Below, piece by piece: positions 19,071 through 52,490 of a DNA stretch of 64,000 nt. The translations under genes were made by a program, and so were the position numbers. The notes below the pieces were generated by a model. The model searched no databases. It was not told the origin of the DNA and worked only from the letters and a program-made list of their open reading frames with translations. This DNA is from Escherichia phage Ecwhy_1. Positions within the stretch are counted from its first letter, which is position 1. The number at the start of each line of letters is the position of its first letter. Location of the stretch: sequence record MH791411.1; one strand, 5' to 3'.

Positions 19071-19071
19071 A

Positions 19072-31814: not shown

Positions 31815-32063
31815 AGGGACTCCATTAAAAATAATATCAATCCAATAATATACGATTCATATAAAAAGTCAATAACATTTTATAAGTAATACCCCTTTAT
31901 CGAAGTCGCTAAGGTTACCCGCCCTTTAGCCCCCTACGCATTTTGCCATAGTCCAATCCCTTTTTATTCATAAAAGTCAAGGGATTACCTATGCATTTTT
32001 TTAACGCTGAAGTTTAAAAATGCCTTGACTTTTTTATGATTCAGTACTAAATCCTTTTACGCA

Positions 32064-32273
32064 TTAATCCTTCGTTACGCTTACGATTATCTGTGTATCC
32101 CCATAGTCCTGCCATACTTCCACGCCAGCCGTCGCCTTGGTTAGTCGTGCTGTCATCTGCTTAATGGTCTTAGGCTTTAGTGGAACCTGTTGCAGTACTG
32201 TACGCATAGCACTATCGACGTTATCATGTACGCCTGCAATAGTGCCTAGAACGCTATATACTGTATAGATCAT
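32064..32273 (-). CDS. hypothetical small protein
   Basis: 69-aa ORF at start of cassette region. Confidence 0.4.
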   Translation of the reverse strand: MIYTVYSVLGTIAGVHDNVDSAMRTVLQQVPLKPKTIKQMTARLTKATAGVEVWQDYGDTQIIVSVTKD

Positions 32274-32341
32274 GTGTATGTACTCCTGATATAGTTAAGG
32301 CCGCTAGAGAGCGGCCTATGATGTTTGATGATGTGTAACGC

Positions 32342-32743
32342 TTACAGTCCTAAGATAGTGCGTGCTTCGTTACGTTCCGTACACAGCTGCATGATGTGAG
32401 CAAGTAAGTCCTTGCTAATGTATCCGGTGTTCATAGCTTCACGAATAGATACATCATAAGCACCGAACCCAGTGCGAACGATACGCACATCATTCAGGTT
32501 AGTATTATAGATACCGCCGAGATCAACGGCTTCGAATACTACATCAACAGAATATTCATTGTTGCCATCGTGGAAGTTTTCCAGTGCAATAGTATTGGAA
32601 ACCGCCCAACGTTTGCAGTTTCCAATGATGCGGCACTGTTCCGGTTGGATAGTGCCATTACTTACAGCGTACTCCAGTGCATCTTTACCAAAAGTCCGAG
32701 CCAGTACTAAAACGTCAGCGAAGGAAGTGATTGAGAAGGTCAT
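32342..32743 (-). CDS. hypothetical protein
   Basis: track ORF trimmed to ATG after TAAGGAG SD; N-terminal extension MYNVLHREGE is translated promoter/hairpin. Confidence 0.5.
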   Translation of the reverse strand: MTFSITSFADVLVLARTFGKDALEYAVSNGTIQPEQCRIIGNCKRWAVSNTIALENFHDGNNEYSVDVVFEAVDLGGIYNTNLNDVRIVRTGFGAYDVSIREAMNTGYISKDLLAHIMQLCTERNEARTILGL

Positions 32744-32828
32744 GATAAAACTCCTTAATTTAGGAGGGAGAACCATTTCCCCCTCTCTATGTAAAACATT
32801 ATACATGAATCTAAGTACTATGCAAGTA

Positions 32829-33164
32829 CTATTTCATTTTAATACCTGGATTCAGGTAGCGGTGAGATCCATATTCTGGATCGGTTTCGGTCCAGTACTG
32901 TAAATCTATAGTACCTTTAGCGTTAATCTTATCTACCAGCTTATTCATCTTAGCGTATACTACATCAGCATCGATGCGTTTAAAGCCAGTGGCTTTAGTG
33001 AAGTAGTAGTGATTTGCTTCACTATCATTCAGGATGTACCGAGAACCGTCAGCCGTTTGTGCGACAATGAATGAGAATGATACTTTACGATCAAGGCCGT
33101 CGCAGTATACAGATGAATCATTGGTACGGATGAAAGCTTTAACGATAGCGATTGAAGTAGTCAT
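32829..33164 (-). CDS. hypothetical protein
   Basis: 111-aa ORF with promoter cassette upstream. Confidence 0.5.
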   Translation of the reverse strand: MTTSIAIVKAFIRTNDSSVYCDGLDRKVSFSFIVAQTADGSRYILNDSEANHYYFTKATGFKRIDADVVYAKMNKLVDKINAKGTIDLQYWTETDPEYGSHRYLNPGIKMK

Positions 33165-33409
33165 TTTGAATCTCCTAACTTTGTGGGCCGTCGCACCATT
33201 GCCGCCCTACGAGATACATTATTGCAGTACTGATATACTTTGTCAATACTTTTTTATTAATAGTTTTAGTTCCACCAGCAGATAGTTACTCACCGTTATT
33301 AACTATATATTTTGGATACACTTATGCACCCTGTGGGCTAGTTTTTGTCTATGCGTATATAATAGCAAAGGGACTGACCTGAGTCAATCCCTTTTTTTAT
33401 TCTTTTTTG

Positions 33410-33610
33410 TTAGATGATTCTCCAATCATCAACGATCATGGTAAGATACCGAACCAGTGATTCGAGTGATTCGTGTTCTCGATAGTCTGACGCACCGCCA
33501 GCGGTACAAGTACAGCCGATTAAGCCGTTTTGCAATTCCTTAATCTGTACATCGATAAGGTTGGCTTTAGCTTCTTTCAGTACTTCAACCAGGGCGATAG
33601 CGATAGACAT
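33410..33610 (-). CDS. hypothetical small protein
   Basis: 66-aa ORF, cassette upstream. Confidence 0.45.
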   Translation of the reverse strand: MSIAIALVEVLKEAKANLIDVQIKELQNGLIGCTCTAGGASDYREHESLESLVRYLTMIVDDWRII

Positions 33611-33700
33611 AATGTTTTACTCCAAACTATTGGCGGGAGAACTATTCCCCCGCTCTATGTAAAACATTATACATTACTGGTTAGTACTGTCAAATAGTTT

Positions 33701-33958
33701 TTATGAAATATCTTCGATGTAGTCGGCCCATTTCATTTTTTCAGTACTGTCAATGGCTACCGGATTATTTGGATCAAACCATTCACCATTACCGCAATAC
33801 ATACCAACGGCTACGGTTTTATAGCCATCCTGGGCCGTACACCACGACATTGCACGATAGATATGGCCTTTAACTGGTTGTAGTACTGGTAACGTTTTAT
33901 GGTCTTCTACGTAGGCCATCGCTTGATGATTTACCCGATATTGTGTGAACTGTTCCAT
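33701..33958 (-). CDS. hypothetical protein
   Basis: 85-aa ORF, cassette upstream. Confidence 0.45.
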   Translation of the reverse strand: MEQFTQYRVNHQAMAYVEDHKTLPVLQPVKGHIYRAMSWCTAQDGYKTVAVGMYCGNGEWFDPNNPVAIDSTEKMKWADYIEDIS

Positions 33959-34034
33959 TATGTTTCCCCTTGTAGTTAGTAAAGTTATTACATCAGTACT
34001 ATCAAGCTATGTCAATAGTACTGAAATAAAACTT

Positions 34035-34259
34035 TTAGATTAGATTATTGAGGCCGTCAATGGTAGACTCACTTTCTTCTTTCTCCCATTGTCGGTAGTA
34101 CTTCCATGCTTCATGATAGGTGGCGATTAGTTCATCTTTTTGATCCTGGTTACATGCCAGTACTGAATCACGGTGAGCGGTGTTATAGATAGAATCGAAT
34201 GATTTCTTCTCTTCTGCCAGGTTAGCTACTTCCCGCATCAGTTCATCAAAGTTAGCCAT
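34035..34259 (-). CDS. hypothetical small protein
   Basis: 74-aa ORF; AAAGGAG SD 7 nt before ATG; promoter plus hairpin upstream. Confidence 0.5.
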   Translation of the reverse strand: MANFDELMREVANLAEEKKSFDSIYNTAHRDSVLACNQDQKDELIATYHEAWKYYRQWEKEESESTIDGLNNLI

Positions 34260-34326
34260 TTTATTACTCCTTTTAGTGGGGGAGGATATCTCCCCCTATG
34301 CAAAACATTATACTTTGTTTTAGTTA

Positions 34327-34590
34327 TTATGCAAGTACTTTTTTCATATAAACATTAAATTCTACACCGCCGTAACCTTCCACGATGATATGTTTTGCGT
34401 TATCACGTTTGCACATAGTGAAACCATCGTTTACGTGTTTTGCATTTTCCAGGGCGACATCACCGATAGCGGCACATACGGCACTAATAACAGTATTCCG
34501 CAAAGTACTGGTATCATTGGCGGTCATAGTAGTTTGCAGTACTACGTTGTCGTATACGTGTGCATTGATAGTGATTTCGATAGTGTTCAT
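34327..34590 (-). CDS. hypothetical protein
   Basis: trimmed to MNTIEITINAHV; track N-terminus MFYIERGKWF is translated leader. Confidence 0.45.
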   Translation of the reverse strand: MNTIEITINAHVYDNVVLQTTMTANDTSTLRNTVISAVCAAIGDVALENAKHVNDGFTMCKRDNAKHIIVEGYGGVEFNVYMKKVLA

Positions 34591-34677
34591 GGTGTATCTC
34601 CTGGACTTGAGGGGAAACCATTTCCCCCTCTCGATATAAAACATTATACGTTAATCTAACTACAATGCAAGTACTTT

Positions 34678-34869
34678 TTAAATTTTATTTCCGATATAGT
34701 CCGGCATGTTCTTTTCAGTCATACGCTTTGCTAATGTCTGCATATGGCTTATAGCGTTCAAGGTGTCTTCCTCCAGGGATGAATCGAGATAATCAGGATC
34801 ATTCTTCACCTTGCAATGATTATGATAGCGTAGTACTGCCAGTACTTTTTTAACTTCTTCTACTGTCAT
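34678..34869 (-). CDS. hypothetical small protein
   Basis: 63-aa ORF coupled to upstream gene. Confidence 0.4.
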   Translation of the reverse strand: MTVEEVKKVLAVLRYHNHCKVKNDPDYLDSSLEEDTLNAISHMQTLAKRMTEKNMPDYIGNKI

Positions 34870-35138
34870 AATAAGTACCCCACTTCGTTAGCTTTCAGGT
34901 TAGTATCAATCATCAGTGGATTTTTGTAGTTCACAAAACGAGTAGTTTTCTCGATAGCGAATCCCATATAATCCAGCTTACTAACAGTACATTCATTCTT
35001 AAAAACTTCTTTCGCTGCATCGATGGCTGATTGCATGGATAACCGACCATCTAAATTAATGTTTCCAAATGATCCACCAGCAGAAGTAGGATTACCGTTC
35101 ATATCTTTAATGATCATAGTAGCGGAGTAGCTGGACAT
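34866..35138 (-). CDS. hypothetical protein
   Basis: 90-aa ORF, cassette upstream. Confidence 0.45.
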   Translation of the reverse strand: MSSYSATMIIKDMNGNPTSAGGSFGNINLDGRLSMQSAIDAAKEVFKNECTVSKLDYMGFAIEKTTRFVNYKNPLMIDTNLKANEVGYLL

Positions 35139-35227
35139 AATTTTGTTTCCTTTTATTGGTGTGGGGAGAACTATTCTCCCCTTGATGTAAACTATTATAC
35201 AGTACTAAAATACTTTGTCAAATACTT

Positions 35228-35635
35228 TTATTCGCCCATATAGATTAGATTATCATCGCCTACATAGGGATCGCAAACGTTGATTTCTTCACAGTACTTC
35301 GTGAATACATCGCCATAGTGACCTAAACCACGATCCCAAAAACCAGTTCCGTGACCTTCGCGGGTAAGGAACAGATCATGACCAGCTTGCTCATAACCGT
35401 AATCAATAAACATACCGCGAACTACTTCCAGATCATTACCGTGTTTCTCAATGAAGCGAGAACATGCAATCACCGCCGCTTGACGTGCTTCATCAGATAA
35501 CTCATAATCTTCCAGGTAATCGCCGTTATCATTATGTACAGTACTGAATTGCATAGCTTCAATGTAAGCTACAACCATTGCAGCATGATTTTTATCGTTA
35601 GTGATGTTCCGAGCGAGATTAGTAGTAGTAGACAT
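35228..35635 (-). CDS. hypothetical protein
   Basis: 135-aa ORF; promoter (35688-35715), leader hairpin (35657-35675) and AAGGAA SD upstream. Confidence 0.55.
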   Translation of the reverse strand: MSTTTNLARNITNDKNHAAMVVAYIEAMQFSTVHNDNGDYLEDYELSDEARQAAVIACSRFIEKHGNDLEVVRGMFIDYGYEQAGHDLFLTREGHGTGFWDRGLGHYGDVFTKYCEEINVCDPYVGDDNLIYMGE

Positions 35636-35656
35636 GATTTTATTCCTTATTGTATT

Positions 35657-35675
35657 GGGGAGAACTATTCTCCCC
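35657..35675 (-). promoter_or_regulatory. 5' leader stem-loop GGGGAGAAtagTTCTCCCC (representative)
   Basis: perfect GC-rich palindrome between promoter and SD; same design upstream of most cassette genes. Confidence 0.6.
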
Positions 35676-35687
35676 TTGATGTAAACT

Positions 35688-35715
35688 ATTATACAGTACT
35701 GATATACTTTGTCAA
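35688..35715 (-). promoter_or_regulatory. sigma70-type promoter TTGACA-N16-TATAAT with CAGTACTG in spacer (representative)
   Basis: read on minus strand: TTGACAaagtatatcagtactgTATAAT. Confidence 0.65.
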
Positions 35716-35718
35716 TAC

Positions 35719-35940
35719 TTAATTACGTTTAAAATGATATGTGCCTTTATCATCCTGTACGCCCCATACTGATTTACCATCAACACCAGTGAAGCCGGAT
35801 TGTAATTCAATATGGAAACCATTATTATCAACTACAAAAACTTTTTTATTTTCATCCCGATAACATTGATATTCTGAATCAACATTAAAGGCCGCATCAT
35901 TCAGACGATTGGAAGCGTAAATGCAAGTCATTGTAGTCAT
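35719..35940 (-). CDS. hypothetical small protein
   Basis: trimmed to MTTMTCIYAS after leader. Confidence 0.4.
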   Translation of the reverse strand: MTTMTCIYASNRLNDAAFNVDSEYQCYRDENKKVFVVDNNGFHIELQSGFTGVDGKSVWGVQDDKGTYHFKRN

Positions 35941-36164
35941 GATTTTATTCCTTAATATACCAGGGAGAACCATTCCCCCTCTCGATATAAAACATTATAC
36001 TTGATTCTAAGTACAATGCAAGTACTTTTTTAAAAATAGTTTTCAGTACTGAATACTTATATAATAGATACACTTCCGCACCCTATGGGTCAGTGAGTTA
36101 TCTCTCAATGGATATATAATAGCAAAGGGACTGACCGGAGTCAATCCCTTTTTTTAATCTTTTT

Positions 36165-36749
36165 TTATCGTGTTACCTTACTTGCTGCCACATCACGCTT
36201 TTTATAGTACTGATTCCAGATATTGCTGGTTAAACCGTAATCAAGTACTTTAATAAGTCCATTACGATCCTGGCCGATATTCTGTTTTCTGATATCTCTT
36301 ATCGTTAGTGTTGATAATGTATCATCAACGTGTTGTAGTGCATCAGCAAAGCGGTGCTGGCGTTCGATTGCATTACGTTTAATATTGTACTTTAATTCAT
36401 TGCACGCGTTTACGTGCTTCACACTGCCTTTGCTTGCAGTACTCAACCGATCCATAACGATAAACATATTATCAGGATCGCATAAATGCATATGCACCTT
36501 TGCAAAGTACTGTTTCAATTGAGGGCGGTCATAGTCTAAAAAATTCCATACCTTACATTCAGTTTCATTTTGTTCTACACCCGCATCACAATTCGCGACC
36601 TTAATCACTAACCGATCATTTAAAGCGAAAACTATACGGGAAGAACCAGCACCGATGATCTCCAGGCCAGCTAACCGACAAGCTGAAAGGATCTCTTTGT
36701 TGGTTTCCATTTCTGACAGTGTACGGATGAATTTAGTATAATTACGCAT
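36165..36749 (-). CDS. protein-kinase-like protein (putative Ser/Thr kinase)
   Basis: G-loop IGAGSSRIVF, VIKV lysine, catalytic-loop-like IRDIRKQN, DFG-like LDYG; trimmed to ATG after AAGGAG SD. Confidence 0.55.
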   Translation of the reverse strand: MRNYTKFIRTLSEMETNKEILSACRLAGLEIIGAGSSRIVFALNDRLVIKVANCDAGVEQNETECKVWNFLDYDRPQLKQYFAKVHMHLCDPDNMFIVMDRLSTASKGSVKHVNACNELKYNIKRNAIERQHRFADALQHVDDTLSTLTIRDIRKQNIGQDRNGLIKVLDYGLTSNIWNQYYKKRDVAASKVTR

Positions 36750-36780
36750 TGCATGTTCTCCTTGAGTTAATGAAACTATA

Positions 36781-37023
36781 TTACAGTACTTTACTATCAA
36801 TGGCAACTACTTTTTTAACATTAACGGCGTGGATCACTTCCTTCGTGTTTTTAGTACTGAATACTTTCGCCGCTCCTTGTTCGACCGTGATACGATAGCG
36901 ACCATTAACATCAACCATATTAATAAAGTCCGGCGTGCTGAATGGTGTTGTTTTACATTTGAGTACTGTTAACAGTTCCACCAGCGATGTAGTTTCTTTG
37001 ATACGTTTTTCTAAAGTAATCAT
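36781..37023 (-). CDS. hypothetical protein
   Basis: trimmed to MITLEKRIKE; track N-terminus is translated leader. Confidence 0.45.
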   Translation of the reverse strand: MITLEKRIKETTSLVELLTVLKCKTTPFSTPDFINMVDVNGRYRITVEQGAAKVFSTKNTKEVIHAVNVKKVVAIDSKVL

Positions 37024-37080
37024 TTTGTTTCCCCCGTGTTGGTATGTACATATAGTACTAAAACATTTGAGTACTGTCAA

Positions 37081-37299
37081 TTAGATAATATTATATTTCT
37101 TAAAATAAAATGCGTCCTGTGTTGGTTGATACTCGATACCGTTACCGTTATTGACTTCAACTAATAAACCTTTGTCAATTAGTTTTTTAATAGTACGATA
37201 CCCTTGTTGAAAATTGGTAAAATGTGAATCATTACGAAAGGTATAACCGTGCTTAACTGCTTCATCAATAGTTTTCTTTTCGATTTTAGATAATTTCAT
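37081..37299 (-). CDS. hypothetical protein
   Basis: trimmed to MKLSKIEKK; same leader as previous gene. Confidence 0.45.
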   Translation of the reverse strand: MKLSKIEKKTIDEAVKHGYTFRNDSHFTNFQQGYRTIKKLIDKGLLVEVNNGNGIEYQPTQDAFYFKKYNII

Positions 37300-37352
37300 T
37301 TTGTTTCTCCCGTGTTGGTATGTGTACATAGTACTAAAACAATTGAGTACTG

Positions 37353-37607
37353 TCAACGTGATATTAGTTTTATTTTCTTATTGTATTGTTGATGCTCATA
37401 AAGGTTTATCTTTCCTGTGTTCTCGATTACTATCCTGTTGTTAGTGTCCACGTCGATTACACGCAGTTTCCCGTTGCTTAACTTCCTAGGTAATAGGTTA
37501 CCATTAATAAACTCATTAGCAAGCTGTACGGCCTTTGTGATGATTCTCTGAGGTGCTTTATAGTGTACCCGTAAGATGTTATCTTTATATAGTTGAACCT
37601 TAATCAT
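37353..37607 (-). CDS. hypothetical protein
   Basis: 84-aa ORF. Confidence 0.4.
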   Translation of the reverse strand: MIKVQLYKDNILRVHYKAPQRIITKAVQLANEFINGNLLPRKLSNGKLRVIDVDTNNRIVIENTGKINLYEHQQYNKKIKLISR

Positions 37608-37625
37608 TTTGTTTGTCCTATAAAA

Positions 37626-37648
37626 AAGGCGGGAACTGATCCCGCCGT
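37626..37648 (-). terminator. rho-independent terminator
   Basis: minus-strand hairpin GGCGGGAtcagtTCCCGCC followed by T-run. Confidence 0.6.
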
Positions 37649-37668
37649 GTTGTTAGTACTGCAAGTTA

Positions 37669-46406: not shown

Positions 46407-46430
46407 AAGCCCACCGTTTAAGGTGGGCTA
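46407..46430 (-). terminator. rho-independent terminator
   Basis: GCCCACC ... GGTGGGC hairpin followed by T6 on minus strand. Confidence 0.65.
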
Positions 46431-46450
46431 GTGATTCAGTACTTTAATTG

Positions 46451-46933: not shown

Positions 46934-47142
46934 TTTATAAATCCTCAATTAAAGTTTAGTTTACGTTTATTAGTGTATCAAAGTTTTCTCGACGTGTCCA
47001 GTTTTTCGTTCGACTTACTGGCGGTCTACTTAGTGCTCCCCGTCTTGATGTAATACATTCTACGCTTTTCTGCGGTAATGTCAACTACTTTCTTAAAACT
47101 ATTTTCAAAGTATCTCAGTACTACGATACTACAAAAACAAAA

Positions 47143-47160
47143 AAGCCCACCAGGTGGGCT
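47143..47160 (-). terminator. rho-independent terminator
   Basis: GCCCACC/GGTGGGC hairpin plus T-run on minus strand. Confidence 0.6.
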
Positions 47161-47166
47161 ATGTAC

Positions 47167-47397
47167 TTAATCAGTGAGTAAAATATTAAACACTTTACCA
47201 TTTAACGTTATTGGTGCACTGCTACCAGGCACAAGATCCGTTAGTATACCTGCAATCGCTTTATCATTGGCTACCTTTCCAGTGTCCAACAGTACTACAG
47301 TACTGATAAGATTAACGCTCGTTTCAATATCATAATGCACGGCGTTAAGTAGTTGTGTAGTACTGCTTTCGTTAAGTAAAACAATTCGCTTAGTCAT
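47167..47397 (-). CDS. hypothetical small protein
   Basis: 76-aa ORF with terminator downstream. Confidence 0.45.
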   Translation of the reverse strand: MTKRIVLLNESSTTQLLNAVHYDIETSVNLISTVVLLDTGKVANDKAIAGILTDLVPGSSAPITLNGKVFNILLTD

Positions 47398-47418
47398 GAT
47401 GTTACCCCGTAGTATCTA

Positions 47419-47718
47419 TCAACGGCAATTAATAACGCCGGTATGAGTTACTTTCTCGGTATCCATTACAGTGACCGAACCGCGTTTAGCACTGGCATCA
47501 TAATAAATTGTCGTGCTACCGTTTTCGTCTTCTTCATGGAACGGGCCGTTTTTAAATGCTTCCGGCTGGATCTCTAAATCCTTTAATACAATCTCGCCAG
47601 TTCTTTCATCGGTCATTGCAACAGTGCACTGAATGAATTTTTCACTACTTACATCTAATGACGCATTAACAGCGAAAGAGGAAACAGATAAAGCCAGGGC
47701 GATGATTGCAATTTTCAT
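47419..47718 (-). CDS. secreted/periplasmic small protein (signal peptide)
   Basis: N-terminus MKIAIIALALSVSSFAVNA: charged-hydrophobic-AxA pattern. Confidence 0.5.
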   Translation of the reverse strand: MKIAIIALALSVSSFAVNASLDVSSEKFIQCTVAMTDERTGEIVLKDLEIQPEAFKNGPFHEEDENGSTTIYYDASAKRGSVTVMDTEKVTHTGVINCR

Positions 47719-47802
47719 TTGATTATCCTTAGTTACCAGGGGAAACCGTTTCCCCTTGCGATGTAAAATATTATACAGTACTAAAAACTAATTGCAAGTA
47801 CT

Positions 47803-48039
47803 TTATGATTTTTTATAAAACATTTCAGCAGTGATATTTTTACCCGTTGGCTGTACTTTATCCAGAATTTTTTGATGCCCTGGTCGTCCAAAGGAATATG
47901 ATCCGTAAACAGTAAACCAGTAGTTACCCTCAGTGTTTACATGTACAGCACAATAAGGAACACCACGCGATTCATCACTAGTAAAGTGTGATACCGTTCC
48001 CGTTACATTCGCAGACGTTGATTTGATTTGTTCGACCAT
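47803..48039 (-). CDS. hypothetical small protein
   Basis: 78-aa ORF, cassette upstream. Confidence 0.45.
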   Translation of the reverse strand: MVEQIKSTSANVTGTVSHFTSDESRGVPYCAVHVNTEGNYWFTVYGSYSFGRPGHQKILDKVQPTGKNITAEMFYKKS

Positions 48040-48147
48040 TTTCTTATTCCTTAGTTACCAGGGGAACCGCTCCCCCTATGCAAAACATTATACGCGTTTA
48101 AAAACTAATTGCAAGTATTTTAATAAAAAGTATTTGAAAAATAGTTG

Positions 48148-48290
48148 TTGACAAGTGCATCCAGTACTGGCATAATTACTACATCAAGACGAAACAGTCA
48201 CTAACCCACCGGGTGCCGAGATCCGTCTATTAAATGATTCAGTACTGAAAAAGTAACGGGGAGTTATTATCTCCCCGTGTTGTTATTTTG
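48148..48290 (+). ncRNA. candidate small RNA / orphan plus-strand transcription unit
   Basis: TTGACA-N17-CATAAT promoter (48148-48176), no ORF, ends at bidirectional terminator hairpin CGGGGAGttattatCTCCCCG plus T-run. Confidence 0.3.
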
Positions 48291-48504
48291 TAAGGTATAA
48301 ACAGAAGTCGCCTTTATTTGCTACGCCGCCAGTGTAACGCGAGGAATAGTTAGAAACGTCCTGGACTTCTGCTATTACCAGGGTATCATCATTCAATTCG
48401 TCGCAGAAGCAAACGGCTGGATCTTGTACGCCGATTTTGTCGGCATGTTCCCGCATAGATTTAACCAGTGCTTCCAGTTGGGAAAGAGTAGTGATATTAG
48501 CCAT
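48283..48504 (-). CDS. hypothetical small protein
   Basis: trimmed to MANITTLSQL. Confidence 0.45.
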   Translation of the reverse strand: MANITTLSQLEALVKSMREHADKIGVQDPAVCFCDELNDDTLVIAEVQDVSNYSSRYTGGVANKGDFCLYLTK

Positions 48505-48588
48505 TTTATTTTCCTCATTACCAGGGAGAACCATTTCTCCCTTTGATGTAAACCATTATACAGTACTGAAAACTAATTGCAAGTACTT

Positions 48589-48777
48589 TTAATTAAATTC
48601 CATAAAATCATTTTCAACGTGCACAACAATCTGATTATTTTTAAAGGACGCAGAAAACTCTATACAATCATAAACCGCTTTTTCTGTTACCAGACTATGA
48701 GCACCAATCGGATTAATTGGGGATTGAATTGTTTCAATCTCGTTACCTTGTTCATTAACGATTAAAATATTAAACAT
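48589..48777 (-). CDS. hypothetical small protein
   Basis: 62-aa ORF, ATG verified. Confidence 0.45.
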   Translation of the reverse strand: MFNILIVNEQGNEIETIQSPINPIGAHSLVTEKAVYDCIEFSASFKNNQIVVHVENDFMEFN

Positions 48778-48816
48778 TGCCGTTACTCCTGGATAGTGTT
48801 AACTCGATATAAAGTA

Positions 48817-48999
48817 TTATACGCCTTTATTGCTTAGTGTCCAGTGATCACGCATCATACGCCCCGCACGATCCCAGCTAGTAGGCATGGGTATGCCTTG
48901 CAATTCGTTAGGGGAGATCTCGACCTCGATCCCTACATCAATAACAGTCATTCCAGCTTTCGCAGCTTGCTCGCGGATAACCTCAGATAATGTTGTCAT
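48817..48999 (-). CDS. hypothetical small protein
   Basis: 60-aa ORF. Confidence 0.4.
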   Translation of the reverse strand: MTTLSEVIREQAAKAGMTVIDVGIEVEISPNELQGIPMPTSWDRAGRMMRDHWTLSNKGV

Positions 49000-49073
49000 G
49001 ATTAAAGCTCCTGGATAGTGTTAACTCGATATAAAGTATTATACAGTACTGAAAACTAATTGCAAGTACTTTT

Positions 49074-49334
49074 TTAATATTGTTTGTCGTCGTCTTCCTC
49101 GATGAATTGACCGACGAAATGATCTACTTTCGCTTTGAGGCTTTTATAATCTTCTTCTACTTCCGTTAAACGTTCCTGGTAGTATTCCAATGCTTCAAGA
49201 TACGCCGCCTCAGCAGTTTTTGCACGCATAGCTAAATTCATTCCACGCGTTTCATCAAATAGCCAATAACCATCGGTGCACTGGCTAATAGATAATGACT
49301 TGCTTAGTACTGTATAGCTAATTACTTTACTCAT
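49074..49334 (-). CDS. hypothetical protein
   Basis: 86-aa ORF with terminator-like hairpin downstream. Confidence 0.45.
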   Translation of the reverse strand: MSKVISYTVLSKSLSISQCTDGYWLFDETRGMNLAMRAKTAEAAYLEALEYYQERLTEVEEDYKSLKAKVDHFVGQFIEEDDDKQY

Positions 49335-49391
49335 TAGATAACCCTCAGTAAAGGCGGGAACTATTACCCGCCATTATCTCAGTACTGAATA

Positions 49392-49631
49392 TTACATTCC
49401 AACCATTGCAGCACGGATCGCAGTAGTGCTATACTTAAAGCCGTCCGGCGTTGTAGTAGTACCGTTGGCTTTTAATCTGCGGTACATACATTCCGCAGCA
49501 ATATCTTTAGTTCTACTTTGTGCGATGCAACTTTGAGCAAGCCGATACAATGACTCACCGTTATTAATCCAAAGGCTTACATTCCAATGAGTTTTGTTTT
49601 TGTGTCCGTTGTAAGTTTTAGTACTAGCCAT
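49392..49631 (-). CDS. hypothetical protein (paralog of 51432..51671)
   Basis: shared GHKNKTHWNVSLWINN ... TPDGFKYSTTAIRAAMVGM. Confidence 0.55.
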   Translation of the reverse strand: MASTKTYNGHKNKTHWNVSLWINNGESLYRLAQSCIAQSRTKDIAAECMYRRLKANGTTTTPDGFKYSTTAIRAAMVGM

Positions 49632-49721
49632 TTTTAAATCCTCGTTTGAGCGGGGAACCACTCCCCGCCTCGATATAAAGTATTATACGCTTTTAAACTT
49701 AGTTTGCAAGTACTTTTTAAA

Positions 49722-50333
49722 TTAATATTCGATTGATTCCACTACGCCATCAATAACATTGAATTGATACTCGTTACCCTCAATCAGTGCCGTAATGTTT
49801 TCAGTAGTGAATTGATCCTCATATGCATTCTCTAAATCACGGTACAACTTGCGGGACAATTCACGAATAGTTTCAGTGAGTAGTTCCTCAAGCTCATTAA
49901 CTAACGTTTCTTGTTTTGCGGTTAAATCAGTGTAAGCCGATTCAATGTACCCGCTTACAGTATTCTCATGCGAGTAGTGGGAGTGCGAACGTTTTACACT
50001 CATCGCCAAATCATCTTCATTCAGCAAGTGACGGATTGAGCGATACTTAGTTAATGCTCTTACCTTGCGTAAAAACTTCACTGCGTCAACGTGGTCAGTA
50101 CTGATTGATGCACCGTCACCCTGGGACCAAAAACCACTGAATTGTATTTCAGCGTCATTAATGCCATATTCCGGTAGTACTGTTTCTTTATAGTATTCAA
50201 TTTCACTTTCAGAAAAATAATTGTCGTTTGAGTTTTTTTCACGTTCCCGAACCAGTTCGATAGCTGACGTTTGTTGTTCTGCGTTCAATTCAGAAAAAGC
50301 CATAACATAAGTAGTAGTAGTGATAGTTTTCAT
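49722..50333 (-). CDS. hypothetical protein
   Basis: 203-aa ORF; FSGFWSQGDGASI motif of unknown affiliation; tandem promoters upstream. Confidence 0.5.
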   Translation of the reverse strand: MKTITTTTYVMAFSELNAEQQTSAIELVREREKNSNDNYFSESEIEYYKETVLPEYGINDAEIQFSGFWSQGDGASISTDHVDAVKFLRKVRALTKYRSIRHLLNEDDLAMSVKRSHSHYSHENTVSGYIESAYTDLTAKQETLVNELEELLTETIRELSRKLYRDLENAYEDQFTTENITALIEGNEYQFNVIDGVVESIEY

Positions 50334-50557
50334 TTTGTAACCCTCATTCAGTAGTTGATGTAAGTATTATACGCTTTTAAAAACATTTGTCAAACTATTT
50401 TATCAGGGGAGTTTTTCGTGTGCCTTACTCCTGGGCTACTTAACGGGAAGTTACTTATTTCGTTCCCCGTCCTGATGTAAAACATTATACGCCTTTAAAC
50501 ATAGTTTGCAAGTACTTTTTAAAAATAGTTTTCAGTACTGAATAGTAAAAAAAAGTA

Positions 50558-50586
50558 TTGACAGCATTATCAAGTACTGGTATAAT
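50558..50586 (+). promoter_or_regulatory. orphan sigma70-type promoter TTGACA-N17-TATAAT
   Basis: plus strand, no ORF downstream; faces minus-strand promoter at 50702-50730. Confidence 0.5.
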
Positions 50587-50701
50587 ATACCCCATGACAA
50601 CAGCTAACCCACCGGGTGCACAATTGTAACTATACTAAACTAATTTTTCTATAGATACACTCCCGCACCCTATGGGCTACGGCTTATCTGCCAATGAATA
50701 C

Positions 50702-50730
50702 ATTATGCCAGTACTGACAAAATAAGTCAA
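50702..50730 (-). promoter_or_regulatory. sigma70-type promoter TTGACT-N17-CATAAT (convergent partner)
   Basis: read on minus strand; leader contains AGCCCATAGGGTGC. Confidence 0.5.
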
Positions 50731-50760
50731 TACCGGCAATTGTAAAGATTTGTAAACTGC

Positions 50761-50997
50761 TTATACTGCAATCGCGTCCAGGCTATAATAATAATAAGTG
50801 CCGTATTGGTGTACTTTATTACCTTTTATTTCAGTACTGAATGAATCCGAACGGTTTGCATATGATGTTAATTTAAAGTACTTTGATTTGCTGATACGTT
50901 GCCATACACCACAGATCCGCTGTAAGTAAGTAGTTTTATTCGTGGTAGTATCTTTTACGGTTTTAACTTCAGTCATATACATATTAGTCATTTTCAT
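50761..50997 (-). CDS. hypothetical small protein
   Basis: 78-aa ORF. Confidence 0.4.
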   Translation of the reverse strand: MKMTNMYMTEVKTVKDTTTNKTTYLQRICGVWQRISKSKYFKLTSYANRSDSFSTEIKGNKVHQYGTYYYYSLDAIAV

Positions 50998-51078
50998 TAC
51001 TCCAGGTTATAGGCGGGAAGAGTTCCCGCTCTCGATGTAAAACATTATACGCCATTAAACATAGTTTGCAAGTACTTT

Positions 51079-51342
51079 TTATTCAAGTACTGCAATCTTT
51101 TTAGTACGGTACACGGTCACGCGGTTGCCCTTTCGGTCGAGCTTTATTTCTACCACTCGACGCGATACACTATCGGGACTTTTTAAGGCCGCTAACCAGT
51201 ACTGTAATGATCTGGCGGTACTACGCTTTACAATGGCCCAACGTTTACCACGTTCCGATTGTACGCCCATATCTTTAAACGTTGCCCCGTCCTGGCGTGC
51301 GGCGATCCGAGCTTGTTCACGCGTCGCAAAATACTTAATTTT
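51079..51342 (-). CDS. hypothetical protein (paralog of 37669..38073)
   Basis: trimmed to MKIKYFATREQ; shared motifs with 37669..38073. Confidence 0.5.
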   Translation of the reverse strand, partial: KIKYFATREQARIAARQDGATFKDMGVQSERGKRWAIVKRSTARSLQYWLAALKSPDSVSRRVVEIKLDRKGNRVTVYRTKKIAVLE

Positions 51343-51431
51343 CATGCTGTTGCCCTTATCGTTGGTGTATGAATAAAACACTATTATAAAGTACTATCGC
51401 AAAAAAATGATAGTACTTTAAATAAATTCTA

Positions 51432-51671
51432 TTACATTCCAACCATCGCCGCACGGATCGCAGTAGTGCTATATTTGAATCCGTCCGGTGTTTTATCTTG
51501 TCCAGTCTGTTCTAAAAATAACATCATATGACGGGCCGCATCATTGCGATTAGTGCTATCGTTAATAAAGTCCTGGGCCAACCGATACAATCCCTCATCG
51601 TTATTAATCCAAAGGCTTACATTCCAATGAGTTTTGTTTTTGTGACCTAAGAACATTTTTGATTTAGCCAT
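51432..51671 (-). CDS. hypothetical protein (paralog of 49392..49631)
   Basis: trimmed to MAKSKMF; C-terminus identical to paralog. Confidence 0.55.
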   Translation of the reverse strand: MAKSKMFLGHKNKTHWNVSLWINNDEGLYRLAQDFINDSTNRNDAARHMMLFLEQTGQDKTPDGFKYSTTAIRAAMVGM

Positions 51672-51764
51672 TTTTTTAATCCTCTTATATAGTGGGGAAC
51701 TATTCCCCACCTGATGTAAAACATTATACGCCATTAAACATAGTTTGCAAGTACTTTATTAAAC

Positions 51765-52127
51765 TTATTTGTAAATTTTGCCACTGTCAGCCCATACCAG
51801 GAAACGAGGCATATTATCCCATGCATCTTGTTTTAAGTTTAAGCCGTGCAATTCCTCAGTTGTTGCCATCCCTGGTACTGGCTTACTACACACCGCGAAA
51901 TTTTCGCCCATATACTGATAAACCATCGTCAAATCATTTGAGATCATTATATGGATCATTGAATCCAGCATCAAAGTAGCGGCGTATTGTTCACGCTTAA
52001 GCGGCAACATTGCAATAAGTTCCCGATAAGCTGCAATGTGAATTTTTACAGTTTCAGCCGGAAGACCTTTCATCTCATCGCGGAAGTTTACCAGGTTAAG
52101 CATGATTTTATTGATTTGAGTCGCCAT
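51765..52127 (-). CDS. hypothetical protein
   Basis: trimmed to MATQINKIML. Confidence 0.45.
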   Translation of the reverse strand: MATQINKIMLNLVNFRDEMKGLPAETVKIHIAAYRELIAMLPLKREQYAATLMLDSMIHIMISNDLTMVYQYMGENFAVCSKPVPGMATTEELHGLNLKQDAWDNMPRFLVWADSGKIYK

Positions 52128-52490
52128 CGTTTTAATCTCTCTTAATGTGTAGCGGGAAGTGTTCCCGCTCTCGATGTAAAACATTATACGCTTTTATCAG
52201 TACGGTGCAAGTACTTTCTACAAATACTTTTAAAATAGTTTTCTTTCTATATAGGAGTACTATTATTCAGTACTGCAATCATCCAGGGGAACTATCTTTC
52301 TATATAGGAGTACTATTATTCAGTACTGAATCAATCCACTAAATCATCCCTATACCCCGTAAAACGTCCTCAGACGCATTCTAACGCATTAATACACATA
52401 AGCTATACATTTGCACCATTCCAATCATTCCAGGGCTTTACAGGCCGTTTAAACGCGTTAAATTATTTTCAATTATTTTGTTTTTAGGTA

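What the first reader, a model, noticed from the sequence alone, without database searches (positions are those of the whole stretch)
32000..52200. Modular cassettes: consensus promoter, GC-rich 5' leader hairpin and SD before nearly every gene
Nearly every gene in this 20 kb block is preceded on the minus strand by TTGACA/TTGCA(A/T)-N16-17-TATAAT, then a G/C-rich perfect palindrome at the predicted 5' end of the mRNA (GGGGAGAAnnnTTCTCCCC, GGGGAAACcgGTTTCCCC, GGGGGAGAtatcCTCCCCC), then an AAGGAG-type SD. The hairpins carry compensatory changes, implying selection for structure. This resembles the promoter-stem-loop (PeSL) cassettes described in hyperplastic regions of T4-type phages and proposed to mediate modular gene shuffling. 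The GGAG-containing stem could also be a nuclease target or a 5'-end stabiliser.
Basis: partly seen in the sequence, partly recalled or inferred. Interest (0 to 1): 0.55.

Follow-up and report, generated by a model that had tools for sequence, protein, structure and literature searches.

The report
Early-gene cassettes in jumbo-phage terminal repeat
The block is the ~22 kb terminal repeat of a giant E. coli phage, built from small genes that mostly carry their own host-type promoter, often with a conserved RNA hairpin at the start of the message, and these standard units appear to let genes be swapped between phages.

Summary
The pattern is real but overstated. The window is an Asteriusvirus (121Q/PBECO4-like jumbo coliphage). 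The flagged block lies inside its ~22 kb direct terminal repeat (window 53864-31906, minus strand). That repeat holds about 56 small genes. Of these, 24 carry the full cassette: -35 TTGCAA/TTGACA, a 16 bp spacer, TATAAT, 'gttttaCAtc', a 7-9 bp G-rich hairpin, then SD and ATG. Two more are degenerate, about 10 have a promoter without a hairpin, and about 20 have no promoter. The exact promoter pattern occurs 23 times against 0.24 expected. The hairpin keeps its position and pairing through compensatory changes within the genus and in RaK2-, Serratia BF- and Kae01-type phages. Wobble pairs (15 G.T to 1 A.C) and purine-rich 5' arms point to selection on the sense mRNA. The hairpin sits in the transcribed leader and has no U-tract. 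In genuine PeSLs of phage phi1 the stem-loop lies inside the promoter. Gene gains and losses between relatives end in the cassettes, often with 45-103 bp overlaps. An rV5-like phage carries the same modules in another order. I read these as immediate-early expression cassettes whose leader hairpin stabilises or insulates the mRNA, and as a PeSL-like variant rather than a member. Function is inferred; there are no transcript data.

The parts
31906..53864 (-). Direct terminal repeat (DTR) of an Asteriusvirus jumbo phage. It holds about 56 small genes, all on the minus strand, and contains the whole finding.
   Evidence: Collinear with the annotated 'Direct Terminal Repeats' 1..21525 of phage vB_Ec-M-J. 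The WPEC3 record starts at about window 31912. Below 31,906 the genes switch to overlapping arrays without spacers.
52125..52210 (-). Full cassette: -35 TTGCAC, N16, TATAAT, hairpin AGCGGGAAcacTTCCCGCT (52169-52151), SD, ATG at 52127
   Evidence: leader fold
51669..51750 (-). Full cassette: TTGCAA-N16-TATAAT, hairpin GGTGGGGAAtagTTCCCCACT (51711-51691), ATG at 51671
50989..51071 (-). Full cassette: hairpin GCGGGAActcTTCCCGC (51029-51013), ATG at 50991
49629..49709 (-). Full cassette: hairpin GGCGGGGAGtggTTCCCCGCT (49669-49649), ATG at 49631
48502..48582 (-). Full cassette: hairpin AGGGAGAAatggTTCTCCCT (48542-48523), ATG at 48504
48037..48114 (-). Full cassette: hairpin TAGGGGGAgcggTTCCCCTG (48078-48059), ATG at 48039
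47716..47797 (-). Full cassette: hairpin AGGGGAAAcggTTTCCCCT (47756-47738), ATG at 47718
46163..46248 (-). Full cassette: -35 TTGCAC, hairpin GAGGGGGAAacggTTCTCCTTC (46208-46187, with G.U pairs), ATG at 46165
45849..45929 (-). Full cassette: hairpin GGGGAGAAaatggTTCTCCCC (45889-45869), ATG at 45851. The cassette and its gene are also present in rV5-like phage A7_1.
44042..44123 (-). Full cassette: hairpin GGGGAGAAatgaTTCTCCCC (44083-44064), ATG at 44044
43814..43894 (-). Full cassette: hairpin GGGGAGAAatgaTTCTCCCC (43854-43835), ATG at 43816
43209..43291 (-). Full cassette: hairpin AGGGGGAAacggTTTCCCCT (43250-43231), ATG at 43211. It is the junction of a roughly 550 bp extra unit in WPEC3.
42771..42855 (-). 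Full cassette: TTGACA-N16-TATAAT, hairpin GGGGAGAAaaacTTCTCCCC (42815-42796), ATG at 42773
40050..40129 (-). Full cassette: hairpin GGGGAGAAatgaTTCTCCCC (40089-40070), ATG at 40052
39750..39831 (-). Full cassette: -35 TTGCAC, hairpin AGGGGAAtagTTCCCCT (39790-39774), ATG at 39752
38751..38838 (-). Full cassette: hairpin GAGGGGAAacggTTCCCCTC (38796-38777), ATG at 38753
38481..38567 (-). Full cassette: hairpin GAGGGGAAtggTTCCCCTC (38525-38507), ATG at 38483
35938..36021 (-). Full cassette: -35 TTGCAT, hairpin AGGGGGAAtggTTCTCCCT (35980-35962), ATG at 35940
35633..35715 (-). Full cassette: hairpin GGGGAGAAtagTTCTCCCC (35675-35657), ATG at 35635. Its gene (35635-35228) is absent from SP27 and 121Q, and the junction there shows a 99 bp cassette overlap.
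35136..35221 (-). Full cassette: hairpin GGGGAGAAtagTTCTCCCC (35181-35163), ATG at 35138
34588..34670 (-). Full cassette: -35 TTGCAT, hairpin GAGGGGGAAatggTTTCCCCTC (34630-34609), ATG at 34590
34257..34334 (-). Full cassette: -35 TTGCAT, hairpin GGGGGAGatatcCTCCCCC (34296-34278), ATG at 34259
33608..33693 (-). Full cassette: hairpin GCGGGGGAAtagTTCTCCCGC (33653-33633), ATG at 33610
32741..32825 (-). Full cassette: -35 TTGCAT, hairpin GAGGGGGAAatggTTCTCCCTC (32785-32764), ATG at 32743
40673..40757 (-). Degenerate cassette: -10 decayed to TTATAG, hairpin AGGGGAAacatcTTCCCCT kept, ATG at 40675
49332..49391 (-). Hairpin GGCGGGTAatagTTCCCGCC and SD without a consensus promoter, ATG at 49334
50331..50393 (-). 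Promoter-only cassette: TTGACA-N16-TATAAT with a 25 nt leader and no hairpin, ATG at 50333
48997..49065 (-). Promoter-only cassette: TTGCAA-N16-TATAAT, ATG at 48999
48775..48843 (-). Promoter-only cassette: TGGACA-N16-TATAAT, with the -35 lying inside the upstream gene, ATG at 48777
45626..45688 (-). Promoter-only cassette of the second class: TTGACA-N17-tgGCATAAT, ATG at 45628
45324..45396 (-). Promoter-only cassette of the second class: TTGACA-N17-CATAAT, ATG at 45326
42475..42541 (-). Promoter-only cassette of the second class: TTGACA-N17-CATAAT, ATG at 42477
42205..42279 (-). Promoter-only cassette: TTGACA-N16-TATAAT, ATG at 42207
41108..41167 (-). Promoter-only cassette before the GNAT acetyltransferase gene, ATG at 41110
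39115..39178 (-). Promoter-only cassette: TTGACA-N16-TATAAT, ATG at 39117
38062..38137 (-). Promoter-only cassette: TTGACA-N17-TATAAT, ATG at 38064
48256..48278 (-). Canonical intrinsic-terminator-like site (stem followed by a T run). This is a different element from the leader hairpins.
47144..47160 (-). Canonical terminator-like site: AGCCCACCTGGTGGGCT followed by TTTTTTG
46408..46429 (-). Canonical terminator-like site
37628..37646 (-). Canonical terminator-like site: GGCGGGATCAGTTCCCGCC followed by TTTTTT
36124..36151 (-). Terminator-like stem that also embeds the -35 of a small non-coding unit. Similar stems lie at 39394-39421 and 43404-43431.
   Evidence: family D11

Best explanation
The block is the ~22 kb direct terminal repeat of a 121Q/PBECO4-type jumbo coliphage. 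A terminal repeat is expected to include the first DNA to enter the cell. It is built as a tandem array of small accessory genes, presumably for host takeover. About two thirds of the genes are autonomous expression units read by the host sigma-70 RNA polymerase. The full unit runs as follows: an A/T-rich stretch with AGTAC, then -35 TTGCAA or TTGACA, a 16 bp spacer, TATAAT, and 'gttttaCAtc' with the start predicted at the A of CA. A 7-9 bp hairpin with a purine-rich 5' arm follows at about +3/+8 to +25. Then come about 15-20 unstructured A-rich nucleotides holding a strong SD, and the ATG. The hairpin folds in the mRNA, not in the DNA. It is a self-contained 5' module that leaves the SD and AUG open. 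Its most likely job is to protect the 5' end of each short early message from 5'-end-dependent decay. It would also insulate translation initiation from whatever lies upstream, which makes the unit independent of context. In read-through transcripts from upstream promoters it would in addition act as a block to 3' exonucleases. Because the ~80-100 bp unit is repeated before unrelated genes, it offers homology for recombination. Genes are therefore gained, lost, replaced and reordered as 'gene plus cassette' units, within the genus and across to unrelated coliphages. Status of each step: the anatomy, its excess over chance, the DTR location by homology, structural conservation, strand bias and junction placement are shown here. 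Early timing, the transcription start, mRNA stabilisation or insulation, and recombination as the cause of the junctions are inferred.
For: Promoter excess: 23 observed against 0.24 expected, all on one strand. Hairpins follow 24 of 39 promoters against a 2.5% background. All 24 full cassettes have identical geometry. DTR: annotated in vB_Ec-M-J and collinear with window 53864-31906. The DTR of fEgEco12 was confirmed by PhageTerm and restriction digests (PMC13070987). Kae01 has the same layout, a 19.7 kb DTR with 50 spaced genes followed by packed genes. Structure: in 47 distinct Asteriusvirus-type hairpins 97.9% of cells pair. Four of 8 pairs show compensatory change, and 44 cells have changes on both sides against 9.1 in shuffles, 0/500. 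Across genera 6 of 7 pairs show compensatory change, 34 cells against 7.9. RaK2, BF and Kae01 hairpins sit at the same offset with entirely different inner stems. RNA level: internal non-Watson-Crick appositions are 15 G.T/T.G against 1 A.C under a caller that penalises both equally. Arms are asymmetric, G-C 229 against C-G 24 and A-T 143 against T-A 20. The model scores sense sites at 30-44 bits and the same sites on the antisense strand at 14-17 bits. Leaders fold into one 5' hairpin of -11 to -16 kcal/mol (z-scores -1.5 to -3.8), with the SD unpaired at mean probability 0.74. Hairpin-less leaders are simply about 16 nt shorter on average, 29 against 45 nt. The hairpins are not terminators: no T tail, and separate canonical terminators are present. 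Shuffling: 35 of 46 junction endpoints against four relatives lie within -90..+60 of a -10 element, against 29% expected. Eleven of the 23 junctions show a 45-103 bp overlap on one side. The DTR is far more mosaic than a control 10 kb region of the same window. Orthologous genes carry different cassette variants in different phages. The rV5-like phage A7_1 has 8 of the genes, with cassettes, in another order. Cargo includes a DksA/TraR zinc-finger protein and a GNAT acetyltransferase; the rest is of unknown function.
Against: There are no transcript data for any phage of this group, so the start site, early timing and hairpin formation in vivo are predictions. With the predicted start, 3-7 nt (usually 5) remain unpaired 5' of the stem. 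From my memory of the ompA work, protection by a 5' stem-loop is best with no more than 2-4 unpaired nucleotides, so a pure 5'-protection role is not a perfect fit. About a third of the promoters lack the hairpin. The same gene can sit behind a hairpin cassette in one phage and a hairpin-less one in another, so the hairpin is dispensable. Junction enrichment in spacers is partly expected from selection against breaks inside genes. Several junctions are shared by descent, so the 23 junctions are not independent events. The alignments used for pair counts were fitted to, or selected for, the structure. The wobble cases number only about 6-8 independent events.
Confidence: 0.6

Rival explanations
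1. True PeSL function. The stem-loop would be a transcription terminator or attenuator that isolates each gene from transcription coming from upstream, as shown for RB49/phi1 PeSLs.
For: The composition is the same: a near-consensus sigma-70 promoter, a G-run/C-run stem-loop and an SD (PMC2839356). Most genes have no other terminator between them, so read-through RNA polymerase does meet the hairpin.
Against: The hairpin lies downstream of the cassette's own predicted start, so it would attenuate its own gene as well. None of the leader hairpins has the T-rich tail of an intrinsic terminator. The block also has about 8 separate canonical terminators on the same strand. In phi1 the stem-loops lie inside or over the promoter, which is a different position.
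Confidence: 0.12
2. The hairpin is a recognition tag for a phage-encoded RNA-binding protein or endoribonuclease. Examples would be a RegB-like enzyme or a translational repressor. Such a factor would switch off or process all terminal-repeat messages together.
For: GGG...CCC ends and a purine-rich 5' arm are kept across genera, and there is strong strand asymmetry. Each genus has its own dominant stem family: GGGGAGAA here, GGGGATACA or GGGAATGAA in RaK2. This would fit co-evolution with a genus-specific protein.
Against: GGAG is present in only about 11 of 24 stems here and absent from the RaK2 and BF stems. Loop length (3-6 nt) and loop sequence vary freely, and inner stem pairs covary freely. 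That pattern is typical of a structure-only element. Genus-specific families are equally expected from spread of a cassette by duplication. No candidate protein was identified.
Confidence: 0.15
3. The palindrome works in the DNA. It could be an operator for a dimeric phage repressor just downstream of the start, a cruciform, or a target of a recombinase that moves the cassettes.
For: The position at about +5 to +25 is a classical operator location (general knowledge). The PeSL authors speculated that GGGG...CCCC could be a target for a recombination protein (PMC2839356). Junctions do cluster in the cassettes.
Against: G.T is tolerated and A.C is not, 15 to 1. This is expected for RNA on the sense strand and not for duplex or cruciform DNA. 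The distance between half-sites varies from 3 to 6 nt and the half-site sequence changes by compensatory substitution. Both fit poorly with a sequence-specific dimer. Arms of 7-9 bp are too short for stable cruciforms (general knowledge). Junction overlaps span the whole cassette rather than the palindrome alone.
Confidence: 0.08
4. There is no function in the hairpin itself. One ancestral promoter-leader simply spread by duplication, and the palindrome is a passenger.
For: Cassettes form clear direct-repeat families. Many hairpins are identical between copies.
Against: Palindromy is kept through many compensatory changes, within the genus and between genera whose inner stems share no sequence. 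Orthologous spacers keep the pairing even where the sequence differs.
Confidence: 0.04

Closest known systems
PeSL (promoter-early stem-loop) cassettes of T4-type phages RB49/phi1, PST/T4 and nt-1/KVP40 (Arbiol et al. 2010, PMC2839356; Comeau et al. 2014, PMC4122927)
   Same: A conserved unit of roughly 80-100 bp placed between small accessory genes. It has an A/T-rich upstream stretch, a near-consensus sigma-70 promoter, a G-run/C-run stem-loop, a strong SD (even the same AGGAGAATCAAAATG) and the start codon. The units are concentrated in a region of high gene turnover. Indels and replacements between close relatives end in the units.
   Different: The stem-loop position differs. In phi1 it is in the -35/-10 spacer or over the -10, and in PST it is upstream of the promoter (PMC4122927). 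Here it always sits 10-14 nt after the -10, in the transcribed leader. It has no terminator tail. The promoter spacer is 16 bp rather than 17-18 bp. There is no nucleotide similarity to phi1 or RB49 (one search lists none). The host phage is a Rak2-like jumbo phage, and the units fill a direct terminal repeat rather than interspersed hyperplastic regions. Mini-circles were not tested.
Early or pre-early gene blocks in long terminal repeats: the T5 pre-early region in its ~10 kb terminal repeat, and the SPO1 host-takeover module in its terminal redundancy (from my own knowledge, not checked here)
   Same: Many small genes of mostly unknown function sit in a long direct terminal repeat. Each gene or each few genes has a strong host-type promoter and a strong SD. 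All point inward from the genome end.
   Different: No leader hairpin of this kind is known to me in those systems. There is no sequence relationship. Early timing and host takeover are inferred here, not shown.
5'-terminal stem-loop mRNA stabilisers of E. coli (the ompA 5' UTR type) and synthetic 5' hairpin insulators (from my own knowledge)
   Same: A short stable hairpin close to the 5' end of the message, followed by an open ribosome-binding region.
   Different: The predicted 5' single-stranded tail, usually 5 nt, is longer than the optimum reported for protection. Function was not tested.
RpoD-like early promoters predicted in Rak2-like phages CBB and GAP32 (PMC5259590) and PA5oct (PMC7318152)
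   Same: Consensus TTGACA/TATAAT promoters with an UP-like element are concentrated before short hypothetical genes and in the terminal repeat.
   Different: Those papers describe promoters only. They report no leader hairpin, no cassette concept and no link to gene shuffling.

Membership tests
PeSL cassettes (Arbiol 2010) | Near-consensus sigma-70 early promoter with an A/T-rich upstream region | tested here: met
   All 24 full cassettes have TTG(C/A)A(A/C/T)-N16-TATAAT preceded by aaaAGTAC. The spacer is 16 bp, not 17.
PeSL cassettes (Arbiol 2010) | Stem-loop with G-run and C-run arms as part of the unit | tested here: met
   Stems of 7-9 bp such as GGGGAGAA/TTCTCCCC
PeSL cassettes (Arbiol 2010) | Stem-loop placed upstream of, within or over the promoter, or just before the transcription start | tested here: not met
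   In phi1 the stem-loops lie at -19..+11 relative to the start of the -10. Here they lie 10-14 nt after the end of the -10, beyond the predicted start.
PeSL cassettes (Arbiol 2010) | Stem-loop acts as an effective transcription terminator or attenuator | tested here: inconclusive
   No leader hairpin has the T-rich tail required by the terminator scan, while 8 other sites on the same strand do. Actual termination needs an experiment.
PeSL cassettes (Arbiol 2010) | SD and start codon at the 3' end of the unit | tested here: met
PeSL cassettes (Arbiol 2010) | Enriched in hyperplastic regions and adjacent to indels or replacements between close relatives | tested here: met
   Closest genomes cover 41-89% of the DTR in 3-15 pieces, against 100% in 1 piece for a control region. 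35 of 46 junction endpoints lie in cassettes, and 11 junctions have 45-103 bp overlaps.
PeSL cassettes (Arbiol 2010) | Recombination between neighbouring units yields mini-circles detectable by inverse PCR | not testable with these tools
   This needs infected-cell DNA.
Rho-independent (intrinsic) terminator | G+C-rich stem-loop immediately followed by a U/T run | tested here: not met
   The stems are followed by ACTAA, GGTAA or CCTAA. None was reported by the terminator scan.
5'-terminal stabiliser stem-loop (ompA type) | Stable hairpin within a few nucleotides of the mRNA 5' end, with the ribosome-binding site left open | tested here: inconclusive
   Stability is -11 to -16 kcal/mol and the SD and AUG are unpaired. 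The start site is only predicted, and the predicted unpaired 5' tail is 3-7 nt.
Terminal-repeat early gene module (T5 / SPO1 type) | Location inside a long direct terminal repeat | tested here: met
   Met by homology to the annotated or experimentally confirmed DTRs of vB_Ec-M-J and fEgEco12. Not shown for this isolate itself.
Terminal-repeat early gene module (T5 / SPO1 type) | Genes transcribed first after infection by unmodified host RNA polymerase | not testable with these tools
   Only consensus promoters are seen. No transcriptome of this phage group was found.
Rfam RNA families | Match to any curated covariance model | tested here: not met
   There were no hits at gathering score over the whole window and only two chance-level hits at E<=1 in the block.

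The most novel reading that the evidence does not exclude
The promoter/leader-hairpin/SD unit may be a shared 'plug' that works somewhat like an integron cassette without an integrase. It would be a context-independent expression module with conserved flanks. Small genes could then move by homologous recombination between unrelated lytic coliphage lineages during co-infection, including Rak2-like jumbo phages, rV5-like phages and perhaps phi92-like phages. The leader hairpin would in addition be a common RNA tag through which the phage times the fate of the whole immediate-early set of messages.
Probability: 0.2. Interest if true: 0.75.

Novelty: new variant of a known kind. Interest (0 to 1): 0.48.

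Why it matters
Jumbo phages of the Rak2 group carry hundreds of genes of unknown function, and nothing has been published on how their first genes are expressed. This analysis identifies the terminal repeat as an array of about 35 host-promoter units. It also defines a conserved leader hairpin that can be tested with simple reporter constructs. The comparisons suggest how the set of early accessory genes turns over, namely as 'gene plus cassette' units that also move to other phage families. That is relevant to how these phages adapt to hosts and host defences. The cassettes are also ready-made, compact, strong expression parts for E. coli. The idea itself, regulatory cassettes that mediate modular shuffling, has been known from T4-type phages since 2010, so this extends and modifies a known concept and does not open a new one.

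Tried and rejected
(1) A MAFFT alignment of -10-to-SD segments followed by RNAalifold gave no structure. MAFFT put the length differences into the 5' arm. I replaced it with gap-free, loop-anchored alignments and a covariance model.

(2) I considered that the 3' arm (UUCUCCCC) pairs alternatively with the downstream SD (AGGAGAA) as a switch. I rejected this because RaK2 and BF stems have no complementarity to their SDs.

(3) I considered GGAG in the stem as a RegB-type cleavage site. It is not conserved.

(4) I considered a leaderless mini-ORF starting at the predicted +1. Only 3 of the 24 cassettes have ATG there; the others have ATC or ATA.

(5) The hairpins are not terminators, on either strand, by the terminator scan.

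(6) Rfam gave nothing. No tRNAs were found.

(7) A host or prophage origin of the cassette is not supported: there is no match in 5,426 E. coli genomes.

(8) IMG/VR pattern scans returned only 121Q and Serratia BF themselves, so they added no new relatives.

(9) One literature search was wasted on generic terms. Targeted reading of the RaK2, CBB, PA5oct, fEgEco12 and Kae01 papers and of a 2026 jumbo-phage review found no description of the hairpin or of cassettes.

(10) The protein-database, structure-prediction and metagenome tools were not used, because the question concerns non-coding architecture.

Full report
IDENTITY AND CONTEXT. The window is from a jumbo E. coli myophage of the genus Asteriusvirus (the 121Q/PBECO4/slurp01 group). 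The segment 42,000-52,200 matches phages WPEC3, vB_Ec-M-J, SP27, fEgEco12 and others at 92-98% identity, but covers only 41-89% of the query, in 3-15 pieces. The record of vB_Ec-M-J annotates 'Direct Terminal Repeats' at 1..21,525. These contain 53 small, spaced genes on one strand. Directly after the repeat the genes become a tightly overlapping array. BLAST places J position 1 at window 53,864 and J position 21,525-21,532 at window 31,906. The WPEC3 record begins at about window 31,912. The window shows the same switch in gene layout at that point.

For the relative fEgEco12, a 20,993 bp terminal repeat was confirmed by PhageTerm and restriction digests (PMC13070987). The more distant Klebsiella phage fENko-Kae01 has a 19,736 bp repeat with 50 genes and the same layout. 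The finding therefore lies inside the phage's ~22 kb direct terminal repeat (DTR, window 31,906-53,864, genes on the minus strand). For this isolate the assignment rests on homology only.

OBSERVATION. The exact pattern TTGMMA-N16-TATAAT occurs 23 times, all on the minus strand between 33,666 and 51,750. Shuffles give 0.24. With a relaxed pattern there are 39 promoter-like sites in the block. Of these, 24 are followed by a hairpin of at least 7 bp with at least 4 G-C pairs in the next ~30 nt. The same criterion is met by 2.5% of random 30-mers in the block and by 0.065% in window 1-31,800. The 24 full cassettes are very uniform: a 16 bp spacer, a perfect TATAAT, and a stem that starts 10-14 nt after the -10 with 7-9 bp and a 3-5 nt loop.

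The repeat finder independently returns the cassettes as direct-repeat families of 54-119 nt with up to 18 copies. The frequency was overstated. Of about 56 genes, 24 have promoter, hairpin and SD. Two more are degenerate, about 10 have promoter and SD only, and about 20 have no promoter (corrected by reading). The promoter-only group includes a distinct TTGACA-N17-tgGCATAAT class.

ANATOMY. The unit reads as follows. An A/T-rich stretch ends in AGTAC. It is followed by -35 TTGCAA or TTGACA and a 16 bp spacer that often ends in AGTACTG. TATAAT comes next, followed by 'gttttaCAtc', the hairpin, (ac/gg/cc)TAA, an A-rich stretch with AAGGA or AGGAG, and the ATG. The CA lies 7-8 nt after the -10 and is conserved in RaK2, Serratia BF and Yersinia Yen9-03 cassettes. 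By the usual rules of sigma-70 start selection (established knowledge) it is the predicted start.

From that start the leaders are 40-50 nt long. They fold into a single 5' hairpin of -11 to -16 kcal/mol, with z-scores of -1.5 to -3.8 against dinucleotide shuffles. The SD is unpaired at a mean probability of 0.74 and the AUG is open. Leaders of promoter-only cassettes are 22-37 nt long and unstructured, so they look like the same unit without the ~20 nt hairpin.

IS THE HAIRPIN SELECTED, AND AT WHAT LEVEL? I built a covariance model from 17 gap-free hairpins. It finds 79 sites (47 distinct) in the five Asteriusvirus DTRs, in A7_1 and in Kae01. In these, 97.9% of cells pair and 4 of 8 pairs show compensatory change. 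There are 44 cells with changes on both sides against 9.1 in shuffles (0/500), and slid controls drop to 60-87% paired. A loop-anchored alignment across genera (window, WPEC3, 121Q, RaK2, phiKp_21, Serratia BF, Kae01) shows compensatory change in 6 of 7 pairs, with 34 cells against 7.9 in shuffles.

RaK2 uses GGGGATACA/TGTATCCCC, GGGAATGAA/TTCATTCCC and GGGAGAGA/TCTCTCCC. BF and Yen9 use GGGTAAGC/GCTTACCC. All sit at the same offset from the same type of promoter. Both alignments were fitted to, or selected for, the structure, so the percentages paired are inflated. The variety of pair types is not.

Orthologous spacers, found through the downstream gene, keep palindromy. Examples are AGGGGAAAcggTTTCCCCT here against AGGGGGAgcggTTCCCCCT in WPEC3 and J, and GAGGGGGAA..TTTCCCCTC here against GCGGGGGAA..TTCTCCCGC in SP27. 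One decayed copy exists in WPEC3.

Three observations point to the sense RNA as the level of selection. First, with a caller that penalises G.T and A.C equally, internal mismatches are 15 G.T/T.G against 1 A.C. The count is 21 against 6 in the model-based alignment, where several of the A.C cases are register artefacts. Strand-symmetric mutation predicts 1:1. The wobble cases amount to perhaps 6-8 independent events, so this is suggestive and not conclusive. Second, the arms are not interchangeable: G-C 229 against C-G 24, and A-T 143 against T-A 20. Third, the model scores the sense strand at 30-44 bits and the same sites on the antisense strand at 14-17 bits.

PLASTICITY AND SHUFFLING. A control region of 10.2 kb in the same window (4,000-14,200, also small hypothetical genes) is covered 100% in one piece by the eight closest genomes. 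It matches only 35 records. The DTR segment is covered at 80% or more by only 1 of 201 records. In distant relatives the matching DTR parts are more similar than the control region, for example 121Q at 88% against 83% and SP27 at 94% against 87.5%. That fits recent exchange.

Collinear chains of the DTR against WPEC3, J, SP27 and 121Q give 23 junctions. Of the 46 endpoints, 35 lie within -90..+60 nt of a -10 element. That zone makes up 29% of the DTR. Eleven junctions have the signature of a 'gene plus one cassette' indel flanked by direct cassette repeats. One genome has 156-459 extra bp, while the two alignments overlap by 45-103 bp in the other. One example is gene 35,635-35,228, which lies between two near-identical cassettes and is absent from SP27 and 121Q with a 99 bp overlap. 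Another is a ~550 bp unit that is extra in WPEC3 at cassette 43,209-43,291.

Two cautions apply. Selection against breaks inside genes would also enrich spacers. Some junctions are shared by descent, so they are not independent.

The same gene often sits behind a different cassette variant, or behind a hairpin-less promoter, in another phage. The 145 kb rV5-like phage A7_1 (Vequintavirinae) carries at least eight homologues of DTR genes at 68-90% identity, with two hairpin cassettes and the CATAAT-class promoters. Their order is different: window positions 51.6, 49.4, 46.2, 42.8, 45.7, 49.6, 43.1 and 48.0 kb. About 150 records of 130-155 kb coliphages share single DTR genes. The 91 nt cassette itself is found in 70 phage records. 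These are Asteriusvirus, Alcyoneusvirus, Eneladusvirus, Erwinia and Salmonella jumbo phages and three rV5-like phages. It is found in none of 5,426 complete E. coli genomes.

COMPARISON WITH PeSLs. PeSLs are defined by several features. They combine a sigma-70 early promoter with an A/T-rich upstream region, a G-run/C-run stem-loop that terminates transcription, an SD and a start codon. They are concentrated in hyperplastic regions next to indels, and they can form mini-circles (PMC2839356; PMC4122927). I ran the same extraction on the phi1 hyperplastic region (ORF185-212). Its stem-loops (GGGGATCggtGATCCCC and similar) lie at -19..0 or -10..+11 relative to the start of the -10. That places them in the spacer or over the -10. 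The leaders are hairpin-free.

Here the hairpin is always in the transcribed leader. None has a T-rich tail, and the same strand carries eight separate terminator-like sites. Composition and evolutionary behaviour therefore match PeSLs. Stem-loop position does not match, and the terminator role probably does not either. There is no sequence homology to phi1 or RB49. I file this as working like a PeSL in evolution, but not as a member of the PeSL family. It is a new variant.

MECHANISM. The best-supported reading is a set of immediate-early, sigma-70-driven, self-contained expression units in the DNA that is expected to enter first. The leader hairpin would be an RNA element that protects and insulates each short message. 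The repeated unit would be the substrate for homologous recombination that shuffles the cargo. The cargo fits an accessory or host-takeover role only loosely. It includes a DksA/TraR-type zinc-finger protein, a GNAT acetyltransferase and a weak kinase-like hit. The rest belongs to PHROGs of unknown function.

The rivals are a terminator, a protein or nuclease tag, a DNA operator or recombinase site, and a passenger of duplication. They are weighed in the rival section of this report. The main weaknesses of my reading are the absence of transcript data, a predicted 5' tail of about 5 nt, and the dispensability of the hairpin.

NOVELTY. Papers on Rak2-like phages report predicted RpoD-like promoters before short genes and in the terminal repeat (CBB, PMC5259590; PA5oct). 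None of the papers I read mentions a leader hairpin, cassettes or PeSLs. Those papers cover RaK2, fEgEco12 and Kae01 and include a 2026 review of jumbo phages. The library does not include subscription-only papers such as the GAP32 paper, so prior description cannot be excluded.

Noticed in passing
whole window; also L007, L008, L009, L010: The palindrome AGTACT occurs 282 times against about 20 expected, a 13-fold excess. It is 13-20-fold over-represented in every Rak2-like locus fetched (Serratia BF, RaK2, Yen9-03, Kae01). It is absent from T4-like phi1 (0 against 16 expected) and at background level in rV5-like A7_1. Within the window it is missing from about 16.5-24.4 kb and 26.5-32.0 kb. 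Most cassettes carry two copies 21 bp apart, one overlapping the -35 and one abutting the -10. No paper in the library links AGTACT to jumbo phages. The cause of this clade-wide signature is unexplained.
   Followed up: partly
window minus strand about 52645-52585, 50700-50640, 43398-43338, 41732-41672, 39388-39328, 36118-36058, 33378-33318; plus strand 48172-48232, 52514-52574, 52730-52790: There are ten copies of a small promoter-driven non-coding unit. Each has its own TTGACT/TTGACA-N17-TATTAT/CATAAT promoter, sometimes with the -35 embedded in the upstream terminator stem. Downstream lies a conserved core RCCCAYMGGGTGC and a G.U-rich 7 bp hairpin. Some copies face each other on opposite strands. 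Related copies occur in Serratia BF, Yen9-03 and RaK2. There is no Rfam match. These may be small RNAs.
   Followed up: partly
window 50482-50396 and 39265-39181 (minus strand); variant at 47055-46975; L005:3228-3314: A structured unit of about 78 nt is transcribed from a cassette-type promoter and closed by a long-range stem (AUCAGG...CCUGAU). It lies directly upstream of a second promoter that drives the next gene. It is conserved at 89-92% in the rV5-like phage A7_1.
   Followed up: partly
window 52211-53864, especially 52962-53113: The outer 1.65 kb of the terminal repeat has no convincing gene. It holds promoters on both strands, two 44 nt repeats (52242-52338) and a tandem array with an 8 nt period (CGTCTAGC/CATCCAGC-like). 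This could relate to genome ends, packaging or DNA entry.
   Followed up: no
window about 25856-31814 (minus strand): Immediately inside the repeat boundary the layout switches. Here there are arrays of roughly 65-90 aa genes with overlapping start and stop codons (ATGA), no spacers, no consensus promoters, lower G+C (0.32-0.34 against 0.36-0.41 in the repeat) and, between about 26.5 and 32.0 kb, no AGTACT. The same arrays are annotated in J, SP27, 121Q and WPEC3.
   Followed up: no
window 44088-44059, 43859-43830, 40094-40065 (minus strand): In three cassettes the predicted +1 is the A of an ATG. This opens a 9-codon frame running through the hairpin to the conserved TAA (AUGAAGGGGAGAAAUGAUUCUCCCCACUAA). 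That would be a possible leaderless mini-ORF. The other 21 cassettes have ATC or ATA at this position.
   Followed up: partly
window 51671-51432 and 49631-49392; 45326-45003 and 38483-38160; 51345-51079 and 38064-37669: Paralogous gene pairs occur inside the repeat. The 79 aa pair is the most widely shared gene: about 150 records of 130-155 kb rV5-like and phi92-like coliphages match it at 79-96% identity. These include records labelled as Campylobacter phages.
   Followed up: partly
window 54000-64000: GC skew changes sign at about 54 kb, just outside the repeat end at 53,864. Related records annotate a convergent set of plus-strand RCC1-like 'DNA condensation' genes beyond a further block of short minus-strand genes.
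   Followed up: no
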